IMG/VR virus record: IMGVR_UViG_3300028048_000081
Coordinates: 32,001-96,000 of that record
DNA: 64,000 nucleotides
Source of the DNA: a virus
Lineage: Duplodnaviria > Caudoviricetes
Strand: one strand, 5' to 3'
The notes under the pieces were generated by a model, which did not search any database, was not told the origin of the DNA, and was given only the letters and a program-made list of their open reading frames with translations. Shown here piece after piece: positions 18,586 to 23,591 of this stretch. Positions within the stretch are counted from its first letter, which is position 1. Each line of letters opens with the position of its first letter. The translations under genes were made by a program, and so were the position numbers.

Positions 18586-19563
18586 ATGAAAGTTTATATT
18601 CATGCAGCAGAAGATGCTGATAAAAAAAAGTTAGCGAGAACAAGCGAAGATCCAAAAGTTCTTGCAAAATTGTCTGATGATGAGGGTATGGAAGTAAGAC
18701 TTGGAGTTGCAAATAACAAAAATACTCCGCCAGAAATTCTTGCAAAATTAGCCGATGATGAGAATCAGTATGTGAGACATGAAGTTGCAGATAATAAAAA
18801 CACTCCGGTAGAAGTTCTTGCAAGATTAGCTGATGATGAGGATCGGAGTGTGAGATGGTATGTTGCACAGAATCCAAGCACTCCAGCAGAAGCTCTTGCA
18901 AAATTAGCTGATGACGAGGATCCTGATGTGAGAACGATACTTGCATTAAATTCAAACACTCCTCCAGAAGCTCTTACAAGATTAGCTGATGATGAGTATT
19001 TTAAGGTGAGAGAATATGTTGCAGATAATTCAAACACTTCTCCAGAAGTTCTTACAAAATTAGCTGATGACGAGGATCCTGATGTGAGATGGTATGTTGC
19101 AAAAAATAAAAACACTCCAGCAGAAGCTCTTGCAAAATTAGCTGATGATAAGAATAAGAGTGTGAGACGAGAAGTTGCATATAATGAAAACACTCCGGCA
19201 GAAATCAAAGAGAAGTTAACACAAAAATCAAATAGAATAAACTGGAAATCAATTGTTAATCAAATTAAATCTGAAGGCGAAGACGGAAGAGATTCTCTTT
19301 ATGAGCAAACAAACGCCGGAATGTATATTGAAGGTTTACAAAATCAAGTAGAAGATAAATTAGGAGTATGGTTAGAACCCTCAATTGAAGGAGGAATGGG
19401 TGGAATCTGGATCTACTCAAACAAGGATGACTCAACGCTTGCAGAAAATATAGATTATGAAGGATTCAATGAAGATGTTCTTGATGCAGCTTGCAACTCC
19501 AAGAACAAAACAGAATTCTTAAAATGGTATAAATCTTATCTTGAAAGCTTGATCGGAGAGTAG
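18586..19563 (+). CDS. tagged HEAT/LRV-type repeat protein (MKVYIHAA)
   Basis: About 8 copies of a 24-aa repeat LAKLADDE..VR..VA.N.NTP.E. Confidence 0.8.
   Translation: MKVYIHAAEDADKKKLARTSEDPKVLAKLSDDEGMEVRLGVANNKNTPPEILAKLADDENQYVRHEVADNKNTPVEVLARLADDEDRSVRWYVAQNPSTPAEALAKLADDEDPDVRTILALNSNTPPEALTRLADDEYFKVREYVADNSNTSPEVLTKLADDEDPDVRWYVAKNKNTPAEALAKLADDKNKSVRREVAYNENTPAEIKEKLTQKSNRINWKSIVNQIKSEGEDGRDSLYEQTNAGMYIEGLQNQVEDKLGVWLEPSIEGGMGGIWIYSNKDDSTLAENIDYEGFNEDVLDAACNSKNKTEFLKWYKSYLESLIGE
18640..19200 (+). repeat. 72-bp coding tandem repeat (about 8 copies)
   Basis: Recurring cttgcaaaattagctgatga...gtgaga...gttgca...aacactcc units. Confidence 0.85.
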
Positions 19564-20006: not shown

Positions 20007-20660
20007 TTATTTGAAGGCGTAGACGCGTTGACCACAGTCATATAGTGGTACGTACCCTGAATTTAACATATGTTCTCTAGAAAAATGCTTTTGACGACGA
20101 GACGCGTCAGAAATTCTATCGTTATTTCGTATCCACCATAGTGTTTTCTGATTGTCACGGATATATTTCATTCCGATATATTCATAATCTTTAAAATTTT
20201 CAAATGACATGTTAACATAAGCTACGATATTACTTATTCCAAAGTTAGATGCTTCTTGAGATAATATATCATATCCATGTTTAATATCATATGTTGGTAA
20301 CATCCACATCCGAGATAATTCTGCATCATATTTTTTGTTTCGTGATTTTTTGAAAGTCATGATGCAGTAAATTTCATTATCTTTGATAAGACCTAGTGCT
20401 AAAACATTTCCTTTAGGTGACTTGAAGGGGTGATATTCATCTAACCATCTGTTTGCAACATTAATATCTAATCTGTATGTATTGAGAGTATGTCCGTCAA
20501 CAACATGTATTCGAGGTTCTTGATAAAATATCAAAATATCTTTTTTGGTTTCAAATGTATGTTGTCGTTTTTGTTGAACTTCTTTAAGCATACATACATT
20601 CTTAACACCATATCTTTTCAAACATGTTTGTTGTCTTTTTTCATTAGAGTTAATTTTCAT
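20007..20660 (-). CDS. Hef-like homing-endonuclease-family remnant: CLxRYGV repeat plus GNAT/Mom-like domain, no nuclease domain seen
   Basis: CLKRYGV, ELSRMWM, IVAYVN, LYDCG; the only substantial minus-strand gene. Confidence 0.6.
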   Translation of the reverse strand: MKINSNEKRQQTCLKRYGVKNVCMLKEVQQKRQHTFETKKDILIFYQEPRIHVVDGHTLNTYRLDINVANRWLDEYHPFKSPKGNVLALGLIKDNEIYCIMTFKKSRNKKYDAELSRMWMLPTYDIKHGYDILSQEASNFGISNIVAYVNMSFENFKDYEYIGMKYIRDNQKTLWWIRNNDRISDASRRQKHFSREHMLNSGYVPLYDCGQRVYAFK

Positions 20661-20751: not shown

Positions 20752-20883
20752 CTTAAGTCCCCCTACAATTATATTATAACGAATTTTTATTTGTAAATAA
20801 ATATATAATATAAAAATACTTTTAAAGGTATCAAATCTTATATATCTACATAAAATATAGATTATTTATAAGGAGGTAGAAAA

Positions 20884-20907
20884 ATGTTTAGTCCTTTACA
20901 AATGGGT
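20884..20907 (+). CDS. tail tube protein exon 1 (MFSPLQMG)
   Basis: AGGAGG RBS, ATG at 20884, in-frame TAG at 20911 inside the intron; 1-mismatch late promoter at 20834-20844. Confidence 0.75.
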
Positions 20908-21277
20908 AACTAGTGCCCTTCATATTGAGTAATCAGTATGAACTACCGAGTTAATTGCTTTGAATCCCTAAAGCTCTCTTGCTACAGTGAATTCAGAAAT
21001 GAAAAACACGATAGAGCGAAAGCAGAAAAAAGTAGAGAGATGTTACATGGTTAAATCCTAAATAATATTGCAATGGGTGTTTAGCAGCCAAACTTCTAAT
21101 CAGATTGTATGAAGTAGGTCCAACGATCATCTCCTTGAGGGAGAGTAGAACTGCAAGCAGATGGCAGAAGAAAAATTCGGGCCCTAGTTACATAGGGATA
21201 AGATATGATCTCATCTTCAATGAAAGTTGAAGCAGTATAAACGGTACAGACGTTGCGAATCTGTACGAAGATAATGT
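20908..21277 (+). ncRNA. group I self-splicing intron (IA2-like), about 370 nt, no internal ORF; boundaries 20908-21277 or 20907-21276
   Basis: P1 GGGU/GCCC; P2 CATATTGA-GTAA-TCAGTATG; P3 CCGAGTT/AATTCGG; P4 TTGCT/AGCAG; P7 GATCAT/ATGATC; P7.1 and P7.2 hairpins; P8 CCCTA/TAGGG; P9 CTTCAAT-GAAA-GTTGAAG; 3' end GAAGATAATG. Confidence 0.9.
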
Positions 21278-21799
21278 ACCAACCATATGCTTGGGGTAGA
21301 TAATTATGTTCCATTAACAACAAACAACTTTGAGGTTAGAATATACAACATGGATGGGAGTTCCCCATCAGAATTTTCAGAACTTCTTACATTATCGACA
21401 GATGAAGTAGGAGATATTCAAGAAGAACAAGATTCTATTGTTGTACATTATGGTAATGGTCTTATCAAGTTTCCAAGTAAAGTAACATTTGGAGATGTTG
21501 ATTGGACTCTCAACTGCTATTGTGAACCAAATGTCCTTGGAGCACTTAGAGAGTGGAGAAAACAAGTTTATGATCCTGATACAGAGAGAATGGGTCTTCC
21601 GTCAGAATACATGAGACAAGTATTCTTCTTAAGGTATGATGGTCAAGGAAATATCAGAGATGGCGTGAGATGCCCGGGAACTTGGATCGGAGCACTTGAT
21701 AACGGTGCAATGTCTCAGCAAGGCGGAGATGTCGTTAAAGTTAGAGTTCCGTTTGTTATTTCTAGAGCGATTTATATGACACCTGAAGATTTGAGATAA
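21278..21799 (+). CDS. tail tube protein exon 2 (T4 gp19-like)
   Basis: NNFEVRI, VHYGN..IKFPSKVTFGDV, LREWRKQVYDP.T..MGLPSEY, WIGALD. Confidence 0.85.
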   Translation, partial: TNHMLGVDNYVPLTTNNFEVRIYNMDGSSPSEFSELLTLSTDEVGDIQEEQDSIVVHYGNGLIKFPSKVTFGDVDWTLNCYCEPNVLGALREWRKQVYDPDTERMGLPSEYMRQVFFLRYDGQGNIRDGVRCPGTWIGALDNGAMSQQGGDVVKVRVPFVISRAIYMTPEDLR

Positions 21800-21944: not shown

Positions 21945-23591
21945 ATGAAGCCTAAAAAATGTAAAGAATGTGGAAAAATATTTTTCCCTAAAAGTGGATC
22001 CCAATTGTATTGCAATGGGCCTCATGAATCTATTTGTGTAATATGTGGCAAGAAATTTCCATATACATGCAGACCGACTGAAAAACCTAAAACTTGTTCA
22101 AAAGAATGTCAAGAGAAGTTACGATCGAGGACAGCATTTGAAAAATATGGAGTTAAAAATGTTTCTGAATTAGATTCTGTTAGAAAGAAGATAAGTGAAA
22201 GAAATAGTTCTAAAGAAGTTGATCTAAAAAGACGAAAAACAAACTTAGCCCATTGGGGAGTAGATAATCCTTCCAAGAATAAAGATATTCGTGAGAAGTT
22301 ATCTGCTGTAATGAAAACTGAAAGGTATTTATCTGGTAGAGAGACCACATGTTTAGAAAAGTATGGTTATCGCAGTCCTATGCAATCAGATGTAGTTAAA
22401 GATAAACAGAGAAAAACATGTTTAGAACGATATGGTATGTCAGGGCATCCCCATACAGCGGAAGATTTTTCTAGAATGATGATAGATAGTTCTAAATGCA
22501 AAGATTATATTATGTTTAGATCGGATCCAAAGAAATATATTGAAGATCATTATTCTACGCCCCCATCCATATATGAACTTAAACGGGACTTAGGAGTTAC
22601 AGATACACCAGTATATGATATATTAATTGCAAAGAATTGTAGGGATTTATTGCTTAGCAGTTATAGCTATATGGAGAAAGATGTATCAGATTTCATAGTA
22701 TCGTTAGATCCAAACATTGATATAGTTAGACATGATAGAAAAATTATCCAACCTCAAGAATTAGATATATATTTACCAGAATATAAATTAGGTATTGAGT
22801 GTAATCCAACCGCTACTCATAATTCATCATTTAAAGATCCATGGGGAGGGGACCCTAAATATTACAAGTATCATCAGAATAAATCCATGAAATCTGGCGA
22901 CGCGGGGGTTTTTCTGTTTCATATATTTGGATATGAATGGGTGAATCGTAGGCATGTAATTGAATCTATGCTTGCAAATCTATTAGGTAAGAACAAATAT
23001 AAGTATGGTGGTAGAGATACATATGTATGCAAAGTATCTCCAGAAGAAAGTAAACAATTTTTAAACGATAATCATCGTCAGGGTAGTACAGTATCTAAGG
23101 TTCAAATTGGTCTAAGATTAAAATCTAACGATAAATTAGTATCCATAATGACGTTTGGTCATACACGTAATACTATAGGAAAAACGGATGATTCTACAGA
23201 AAATACCTGGGAACTTTCTAGATTCTGCAATAAACTGTATACTACAGTAAATGGGGGTGCAAGCAAGCTGTTCAAATATTTTATTGAAAATTATTCATTT
23301 GATAAGATTATTTCATTTTCAGATATAGCTCATACTAAAGGTACGCTATATGAAAAATTGAATTTTCATCAGATTTCTATATCTGCTCCAAGTTATGTTT
23401 GGTGTGATGGATATGATAACATATACTATAATAGAGTTTCTTGCCAGAAATCAAATCTTAAGAAATTATTGAAAGATGATAGCATTGATATTGAAAATCA
23501 ATCCGAAGCAAAGATAATGGAAGCACATAAATTTGCTCGAGTATATGATTGTGGAGTAATCAGATGGGAATATAATTATCATGAACCTTAA
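21945..23591 (+). CDS. free-standing Hef-like homing endonuclease (zinc fingers, CLEKYG repeats, PD-(D/E)xK/DUF559-like nuclease, GNAT/Mom-like C-terminus)
   Basis: CKECG/CVICG; EKYGV, HWGV, CLEKYG, CLERYG; ELDIYLPEYKLGIECN; WELSRFC..GASKL..ISFSD..GTLYEKLNF..YDCG. Confidence 0.75.
   Translation: MKPKKCKECGKIFFPKSGSQLYCNGPHESICVICGKKFPYTCRPTEKPKTCSKECQEKLRSRTAFEKYGVKNVSELDSVRKKISERNSSKEVDLKRRKTNLAHWGVDNPSKNKDIREKLSAVMKTERYLSGRETTCLEKYGYRSPMQSDVVKDKQRKTCLERYGMSGHPHTAEDFSRMMIDSSKCKDYIMFRSDPKKYIEDHYSTPPSIYELKRDLGVTDTPVYDILIAKNCRDLLLSSYSYMEKDVSDFIVSLDPNIDIVRHDRKIIQPQELDIYLPEYKLGIECNPTATHNSSFKDPWGGDPKYYKYHQNKSMKSGDAGVFLFHIFGYEWVNRRHVIESMLANLLGKNKYKYGGRDTYVCKVSPEESKQFLNDNHRQGSTVSKVQIGLRLKSNDKLVSIMTFGHTRNTIGKTDDSTENTWELSRFCNKLYTTVNGGASKLFKYFIENYSFDKIISFSDIAHTKGTLYEKLNFHQISISAPSYVWCDGYDNIYYNRVSCQKSNLKKLLKDDSIDIENQSEAKIMEAHKFARVYDCGVIRWEYNYHEP

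What the first reader, a model, noticed from the sequence alone, without database searches (positions are those of the whole stretch)
20900..21285. Intron splice junction cannot be canonical at both ends
Seen: P1 places the usual U.G pair at U20907.G20915, giving a 5' site after GGU. The 3' end GAAGAUAAUG (G21276) resembles the T4 td intron terminus. Joining U20907 to 21277 gives GGT TAC CAA CCA TAT GCT TGG GGT AGA TAA, which is frameshifted and stops. The in-frame product GGT ACC AAC needs one of two options. (a) A 5' cut after G20906, one nt upstream of the U.G pair, with normal omega-G. (b) A normal 5' cut with terminal omega-U21277, supported by possible P9.0 pairing C21212-A21213/U21275-G21276. 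Either departs from the standard group I rules (5' U.G, 3' omega-G) and coincides with the variant P7. A single-base assembly error is the mundane alternative.
Basis: partly seen in the sequence, partly recalled or inferred. Interest (0 to 1): 0.75.

Follow-up and report, generated by a model that had tools for sequence, protein, structure and literature searches.

The report
Phage intron that splices after G
A 370-base self-splicing intron in a phage tail tube gene must be cut one base before the usual U-G marker, a real and conserved oddity that is already documented for the ribozymes of transposon-linked 'IStron' introns, of which this is a cargo-less relative.

Summary
Window 20884-21799 is a tail tube gene split by a group I intron. 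Joining the canonical 5' site (after U20907 of the U.G pair) to the canonical 3' site (after G21276) gives one base too many.

It is not an assembly error. Ten distinct copies of this intron at the same site in viral and metagenome contigs show the same pattern: TGGG, then U, with the guide UGCCC downstream, and at the 3' end G, then U or C, then ACN AAY CAY ATG.

Uninterrupted homologues (181 aa) read MFxPLxMGTNHMLG, so the in-frame join is required.

- A homologous ribozyme in Staphylococcus Silviavirus phages has an intronless allele that leaves only this solution.
- This is the published habit of group B (IS607-type) IStron ribozymes, shown by RT-PCR for BcISt1 (PMC4227781).

The window's intron has no TnpA or TnpB gene and no CGG end, so it is a plain, cargo-less intron of that lineage. 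The link to the variant P7 is not supported. No RNA data could be obtained. The scan has noted the same kind of intron before on other DNA (e1-5682243). It is a new member of a known kind, of modest interest.

The parts
20870..20876 (+). Shine-Dalgarno sequence (AAGGAGG) of the tail tube gene
   Evidence: Read directly from the sequence. A purine-rich site sits at the same distance in all related loci.
20884..20906 (+). Exon 1: ATG plus 7 codons and the first two bases of the Gly codon (MFSPLQM-GG)
   Evidence: The N-terminus MFxPLxMG is conserved in the 181-aa homologues. The end at G20906 is inferred from the family rule.
20907..21276 (+). Group I intron, 370 nt, no ORF. U20907 is the first base and G21276 is omega-G.
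   Evidence: Rfam RF00028 E 6e-7. nhmmer matches to same-site copies range from 1e-74 to 1e-115. 47 of 75 consensus pairs show compensatory changes.
20904..20918 (+). P1 hairpin. Exon G20904-G20906 pairs with C20916-C20918. It is extended by intronic U20907.G20915 and A20908-U20914, with loop 20909-20913.
   Evidence: GGG/CCC and U.G are invariant in 11 of 11 sequences.
20913..20915 (+). Guide bases G20913, U20914 and G20915, which can re-pair with exon 2 bases C21279, A21278 and U21277 (P10)
   Evidence: Read from the sequence. The first base of exon 2 is U or C in all ten copies, and both can pair with this G. This is an inference.
20919..20942 (+). P2 hairpin with a GUAA loop, directly abutting P1
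   Evidence: Several pairs covary.
21125..21129 (+). P7 5' strand GAUCA. G21125 is the guanosine-site G.
   Evidence: Alignment to the Rfam consensus GACUA. It pairs with 21206-21210.
21206..21210 (+). P7 3' strand UGAUC. C21210 pairs with G21125.
   Evidence: The G-C and A-U pairs of the G-binding site are kept. Only the inner two pairs are swapped relative to the consensus.
21244..21266 (+). P9.1-type hairpin whose loop motif (UUGCGAA in the window and four copies, one or two changes in the other five) is shared by the same-site copies
21276..21276 (+). Omega-G, the last intron base
   Evidence: G is invariant at this position in ten distinct copies, while the four bases before it vary.
21277..21799 (+). 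Exon 2: the third base of the Gly codon, then TNHMLGVDNY... to the stop
   Evidence: PHROG phrog_4542, tail tube protein, E 8e-11. tblastn matches tail tube proteins of Listeria and Bacillus phages.

Best explanation
A cargo-less group I intron (IA2-like) of the ribozyme lineage found in group B (IS607-type) IStrons interrupts the tail tube gene after the motif TGGG.

Proposed steps:
1. P1 forms from only three exon bases (G20904-G20906 with C20916-C20918). It is extended by the intronic pairs U20907.G20915 and A20908-U20914.
2. Exogenous guanosine, bound at the intact G site of P7 (G21125-C21210), attacks the bond between G20906 and U20907. This is one base 5' of the U of the U.G pair.
3. Omega-G21276 then occupies the G site. 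Guide bases G20915, U20914 and G20913 re-pair with U21277, A21278 and C21279 (P10).
4. G20906 is ligated to U21277, giving ATG GGU ACC AAC and a 181-aa tail tube protein.

Shown here: the frame requirement, the conservation of the pattern, the covariation of the ribozyme, and the unambiguous junction in a homologous ribozyme. Shown in the literature: splicing after G in BcISt1. Inferred: that this copy splices, and the P10 hand-off.
For: 1. The in-frame product is required. Homologues of 181 aa read MFxPLxMGTNHMLG. In the ten intron-bearing copies, exon 1 and the TNH codons change only synonymously or by whole codons.
2. Ten distinct same-site copies, with introns of 369-531 nt, all show TGGG then U, the guide UGCCC, and a 3' end of G, then U or C, then ACN.
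3. The ribozyme is under structural selection: 47 of 75 pairs have compensatory changes.
4. The G before the last base is invariant and the base after it varies U/C. This fits an omega-G followed by a wobble codon position.
5. The homologous ribozyme in Staphylococcus phage qdsa001 (nhmmer E 9e-45, same P1) reads TAT GGG, then the intron starting with U, ending CGG, then CAG GGA. The intronless allele in phage Romulus reads TAT GGG CAA GGT (IIYGQGD). Only a cut after G with a normal omega-G restores the gene.
6. That element carries TnpB. The IStron ribozyme of C. botulinum phage c-st matches the family profile at E 6e-61.
7. PMC4227781 reports that group B IStrons insert after AGGG, TGGG or GAGG, that their first base is a U not present in the exon, and that the U-G pair is shifted by one bp. 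[quoted passage not shown] 10.1101/2023.11.20.567912 reports the TGGG target and scarless splicing for CboIStron.
Against: - No RNA evidence exists for this locus.
- At this site the base on both sides is U, so the spliced product alone cannot tell (a) from (b). The choice rests on homology and on conservation of the G.
- The U.G pair is invariant in all copies. That would be expected if it marked the cut in the usual way, and how a cut 5' of the U is specified is unexplained.
- The intron lacks the IStron hallmarks: no IS genes, no CGG end and no long AU-rich stem.
- The Rfam score is below the gathering threshold.
Confidence: 0.85

Rival explanations
1. Option (b): a canonical 5' cut after U20907 and a non-G terminal base, so the intron ends with U21277 (C in some copies).
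For: It gives the same in-frame product at this site. The U.G pair is invariant. A21278-U20914 would lie directly next to U20907.G20915 on the guide, as in a standard P1/P10 arrangement.
Against: The G-binding pair of P7 is intact, and a pyrimidine cannot fill that site. The preceding G is invariant in ten copies while the supposed terminal base varies U/C. In the Staphylococcus homologue this rule gives GGG TAG, a stop codon. BcISt1 experiments show the U is intronic.
Confidence: 0.04
2. Both sites are canonical and the mRNA carries one extra base. The tail tube protein is then made from ATG21287 without its first 11 residues, or the gene is dead.
For: It follows the textbook rules. An ATG at 21287 opens a 170-aa frame, and gene callers report this form.
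Against: There is no ribosome site before ATG21287. In intron-bearing copies the eight codons of exon 1 and the TNH codons are kept by synonymous changes and whole-codon indels. The tail tube is essential. The same logic fails in the Staphylococcus SbcC gene, where option (a) restores the protein exactly.
Confidence: 0.05
3. A single-base assembly or sequencing error at one junction.
For: It is the simplest explanation for a single contig.
Against: The same offset occurs in ten distinct, diverged copies from different samples and assemblies and in many isolate genomes of Staphylococcus phages.
Confidence: 0.01

Closest known systems
Group B (IS607-type) IStron ribozymes: BcISt1, CbISt1-4 of C. 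botulinum and its phages, CboIStron (PMC4227781; 10.1101/2023.11.20.567912)
   Same: The ribozyme sequence is homologous: the c-st IStron matches the tail-tube intron profile at E 6e-61. Insertion is after TGGG. The first intron base is a U that pairs with the guide G. The splice is after G, one bp 5' of the U-G pair, with a normal terminal G.
   Different: There is no TnpA or TnpB gene and no guide RNA. The 3' end is AUG, not CGG. There is no long AU-rich inverted-repeat stem. The U.G pair is followed by one more conserved pair rather than directly by a loop. The intron sits at one fixed site in an orthologous phage gene rather than at scattered sites.
TnpB-carrying IStron in the SbcC-like exonuclease gene of Staphylococcus Silviavirus phages (qdsa001 KY779848, V1SA19)
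   Same: About 68% identity over 311 nt, including an almost identical P1. The 5' context ATGGG, followed by the intron's first U, is the same.
   Different: It carries a 400-aa TnpB gene, ends in CGG and sits in a different gene. There the junction is unambiguous, because the intronless Romulus allele is available.
Plain IA2 intron of Turicibacter related to group B IStrons (PMC4227781)
   Same: [quoted passage not shown]
   Different: It lies in a bacterial chromosome, not a phage structural gene. Its sequence was not compared here.
T4 td intron (canonical IA2)
   Same: The 5' exon also ends in TGGG plus U. The intron starts UAAUUG, like the Staphylococcus element, and the 3' end AUAAUG is similar.
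   Different: In td the U after GGG is the last exon base (TGGGT, then the intron), so the cut is 3' of the U.G pair as the rule demands.
Twort orf142 (tail tube) introns
   Same: A phage tail tube gene that is a hotspot for several group I introns (PMC11878797). Relatives of this window carry up to two introns in the gene.
   Different: The tail tube proteins are only distantly related. The Twort introns were not compared here.

Membership tests
Group I intron (Rfam RF00028) | Conserved core P3-P9 with P4/P7 sequence elements | tested here: met
   cmscan full-length match, 34.3 bits, E 6e-7, below the gathering score of 50. The consensus fold of 11 homologues has 47 of 75 pairs with compensatory changes.
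Group I intron (Rfam RF00028) | Guanosine-binding G-C pair in P7 | tested here: met
   G21125-C21210 and A21126-U21209 align to the consensus G-C and A-U. Only the inner pairs are swapped.
Group I intron (Rfam RF00028) | 5' exon ends with the U of a U.G pair, and the cut is 3' of that U | tested here: not met
   The U.G pair is present (U20907.G20915), but a cut 3' of it combined with omega-G is out of frame. In the homologous Staphylococcus element the U is demonstrably intronic.
Group I intron (Rfam RF00028) | Terminal omega-G | tested here: met
   G21276. The G is invariant in ten copies.
Group I intron (Rfam RF00028) | Self-splicing with guanosine | not testable with these tools
   No RNA data.
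Group B (IS607-type) IStron | Ribozyme homologous to group B IStron ribozymes | tested here: met
   nhmmer with the tail-tube intron profile gives E 6e-61 for the c-st IStron and 9e-45 for the Staphylococcus TnpB IStron. Canonical neighbour introns score 1e-14 to 1e-17.
Group B (IS607-type) IStron | Insertion after a GG-ending target (AGGG, TGGG or GAGG) | tested here: met
   ATGGG in the window. ATGGG or TTGGG in all ten copies.
Group B (IS607-type) IStron | First element base is U, the splice is after G, and the U-G pair is shifted one bp | tested here: met
   Frame logic at this site plus the unambiguous homologue. This is a comparative result, not an experimental one.
Group B (IS607-type) IStron | IS component (serine-recombinase TnpA and/or TnpB) inside the 3' part | tested here: not met
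   The 370-nt intron has only short mechanical ORFs of 41-75 aa running through it and no room for a TnpB-size (about 400 aa) gene. PF07282 finds nothing in the 124-kb genome record.
Group B (IS607-type) IStron | 3' end CGG (recombinase core GG) | tested here: not met
   The window ends AAUG. The copies end AUG, ACG, AAG, GUG, UGG or CAG.
Group B (IS607-type) IStron | Long AU-rich inverted-repeat stem around the ORF site | tested here: not met
   The 3' region holds only a 6-bp P9 and a 7-bp hairpin of balanced composition.

The most novel reading that the evidence does not exclude
The one-base shift is an intrinsic property of this ribozyme lineage. It persists in a minimal 370-nt intron that has lost every transposon feature. 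The invariant guide G20915 first pairs with the intron's own first U and then hands over to the first base of exon 2, which is always a pyrimidine, so one guide base sets both splice sites. If so, this small cargo-free intron would be a clean model for the open question raised in PMC4227781: how a group I core selects a bond 5' of the wobble pair.
Probability: 0.35. Interest if true: 0.5.

Novelty: new member of a known kind. Interest (0 to 1): 0.3.

Why it matters
For annotation, gene callers report this tail tube protein as a 170-aa fragment. Applying the textbook splice rule would predict a frameshift. The correct join, after G20906 to U21277, gives the full 181-aa protein.

For biology, the finding shows that the 'splice after G' habit of IS607-type IStron ribozymes also occurs in plain, cargo-less introns. 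These are fixed at one site of an essential structural gene across a clade of uncultured phages known only from viral and metagenome contigs. The habit therefore does not depend on transposon ends. The mechanism of the shifted 5' site is still unexplained, and a 370-nt natural ribozyme with ten diverged homologues is convenient material for testing it.

Tried and rejected
- Megablast of the region against phage genomes found nothing.
- A loose P1 pattern scan of viral contigs returned only chance matches: 119 loci, none with a ribozyme. A longer pattern worked.
- The link between the offset and the GAUCA/UGAUC P7 variant was rejected. Copies with the standard P7 share the offset.
- Assembly error was rejected (ten copies).
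- An intron-specific association with the flanking homing-endonuclease-like genes was rejected. Such genes flank intronless alleles as well.
- No IStron cargo in this genome: no TnpB match. Only one copy of this intron family occurs in the window.
- A programmed +1 frameshift was considered and dropped. GGU followed by U or C offers no re-pairing, and the downstream stops are not conserved (reasoning).
- Literature searches for a tail tube intron with a non-canonical junction gave nothing specific. The IStron papers gave the explanation.

Full report
**What is there**

The window is part of a 124,241-base IMG/VR virus record. At 20884 an ATG, preceded by AAGGAGG, opens eight codons (MFSPLQMG) that run into a stop at 20911. 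From 21275 a frame opens that reads (C)TNH and then a 170-aa ORF from ATG21287.

That ORF is a tail tube protein. It matches phrog_4542 at E 8e-11 and tail tube proteins of Listeria and Bacillus phages at about 24% identity.

Between the two parts lies a group I intron. The Rfam model RF00028 aligns end to end over 20898-21232 at 34.3 bits and E 6e-7, below the curated score of 50. No family reached its gathering score in the whole window.

**Check of the observation**

The model puts its conserved U on U20907 and the paired guide G on G20915. The only G near the 3' end that could serve as omega-G and leave the downstream frame open is G21276, because TAA at 21272-21274 closes the frame upstream. 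Joining after U20907 to U21277 adds one base and runs into a stop.

The protein search found 746 relatives, most of them 181 aa long and beginning MFxPLxMGTNHMLG. That is exon 1, plus TNH, plus the 170-aa ORF. The mature mRNA must therefore read GGU ACC across the junction. That requires either (a) a cut after G20906 with omega-G21276, or (b) a cut after U20907 with a terminal U21277.

**Not an error, and conserved**

Related loci from IMG/VR and two pattern scans gave nine further distinct copies of this intron at the same site: L020, L024 (=L185), L029 (=L030), L031, L179, L180, L181, L182 and L190. L189 is a truncated eleventh copy.
- Their introns are 369-531 nt long.
- All read TGGG, then U, then 4-9 bases, then UGCCC.
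- At the 3' end all read G, then U (seven copies) or C (three copies), then ACN AAY CAY ATG.
- Exon 1 and the TNH codons differ among these copies only by synonymous changes, by changes at positions that also vary in intronless homologues, or by whole-codon insertions. These codons are therefore translated in frame with the rest.

A consensus fold of the ten copies plus a Staphylococcus homologue has 75 pairs, 47 of them with compensatory changes. The ribozyme is therefore under selection.

In the same gene, other relatives carry different introns a few bases downstream (L021 and L027 after AAT; a second intron in L031 after GAT). Those obey the standard rule at both ends. The oddity belongs to this intron lineage, not to the gene.

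**Which option**

Three lines point to (a).

1. The G at the position of G21276 is invariant, while the four bases before it vary. The base after it varies U/C, as a synonymous third position of a Gly codon would. The G-binding pair of P7 (G21125-C21210, with A-U above it) is intact, so a terminal G is expected.

2. The intron is about 68% identical over 311 nt, including P1, to an element in the SbcC-like exonuclease gene of Staphylococcus Silviavirus phages. In phage qdsa001 the gene reads TAT GGG, then the element starting with U and ending CGG, then CAG GGA GAC. Phage Romulus carries the uninterrupted gene, TAT GGG CAA GGT GAC. The protein IIYGQGDIPMF is also found in Sb-1 and SEP1. Only a cut after G with a normal omega-G restores it. 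A cut after the U gives a frameshift or GGG TAG.

3. That Staphylococcus element encodes TnpB (PF07282 and PF01385). The IStron of C. botulinum phage c-st, with IS607-type TnpA and TnpB genes, matches the tail-tube intron profile at E 6e-61.

Tourasse et al. 2014 (PMC4227781) describe exactly this for group B (IS607-type) IStrons:
- insertion after AGGG, TGGG or GAGG;
- a U at the junction that is not part of the exon;
[quoted passage not shown] Work on CboIStron reports the TGGG target and scarless splicing. T4 td is a useful contrast. It has TGGG plus U as exon and then an intron starting UAAUUG, so it follows the standard rule.

**What it is, and what it is not**

The window's intron shares the ribozyme, the TGGG site, the intronic U and the shifted cut with group B IStrons. 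It has none of the transposon parts:
- no room for a transposase or TnpB gene in its 370 nt;
- no TnpB anywhere in the genome record;
- an AUG end instead of CGG;
- no long AU-rich stem.

It is best filed as a plain, cargo-less intron of that ribozyme lineage. It is comparable to the Turicibacter intron mentioned in PMC4227781 and to a cargo-less example that this scan noted on other DNA (e1-5682243).

**Likely mechanism**

- P1 uses only three exon bases (GGG with CCC). It is extended by the intronic U20907.G20915 and A20908-U20914 and stacks on P2.
- Guanosine attacks between G20906 and U20907.
- G20915, U20914 and G20913 can then pair with U21277, A21278 and C21279 (P10). The first base of exon 2 is a pyrimidine in all ten copies, which fits pairing with G20915. 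However, intronless alleles are also mostly GGT, so this is not significant (about 0.1 by chance).
- Ligation gives GGU ACC.

The steps are inferred by homology. How the core selects a bond 5' of the wobble pair is unexplained here and in the literature.

The GAUCA/UGAUC P7 variant occurs in the window, L031 and five of the later copies (L179-L182, L190). L020, L024, L029 and the Staphylococcus element have the standard P7 and the same offset, so the two features are not linked. The proposed P9.0 pairing in support of a terminal U was not supported by anything found.

**Limits**

No RNA evidence could be obtained. At this site the duplicated U means that the spliced product alone cannot separate (a) from (b). 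The C-type copies, or the excised intron's 5' end, would do so.

Noticed in passing
window 20007-20660 (-) and 21945-23591 (+): The tail tube gene is flanked by two homing-endonuclease-like genes (phrog_3339; Pfam DUF7487, with a Mom-like part in the larger one). Similar genes flank both intronless and intron-bearing alleles in relatives, so they are not tied to this intron.
   Followed up: partly
L031:1103-1500, L021, L027, L028, L035: The tail tube gene of this phage group is an intron hotspot. Other group I introns sit 7 nt downstream (after AAT) and after the GVD codons, and some relatives carry two. Where both ends were read (L021 and the second intron of L031) they follow the standard U.G and omega-G rule. 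This recalls Twort orf142, also a tail tube gene.
   Followed up: partly
L202 (G000:C1:22525-22667, outside the window): The same genome has a second weak group I match (26 bits), with a typical P7 3' strand motif, next to a reading frame that looks like a family A DNA polymerase motif.
   Followed up: no
L194 (KY779848 91000-96500) versus L197 (MW546077): A TnpB-only IStron splits the SbcC-like exonuclease gene in many Staphylococcus Silviavirus phages, while Romulus has the empty site. The first codons of exon 2 differ synonymously between the two alleles (CAG GGA .. ATT versus CAA GGT .. ATC). The records annotate the halves as separate genes.
   Followed up: partly
L199 (JX846613 8509-10175) and L200 (OP263969): Further relatives of this ribozyme lie in the portal gene (with an IS605 OrfB gene) and in the tail lysin gene of Silviavirus phages. 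Both show GG followed by U and a guide GCC, suggesting the same shifted site. Their junctions were not checked against intronless alleles.
   Followed up: no
window 18586-19563 (+): A 325-aa protein made of leucine-rich repeat variant (LRV) and HEAT-like repeats (Pfam PF01816, E 3e-47) lies upstream of the tail tube region.
   Followed up: no
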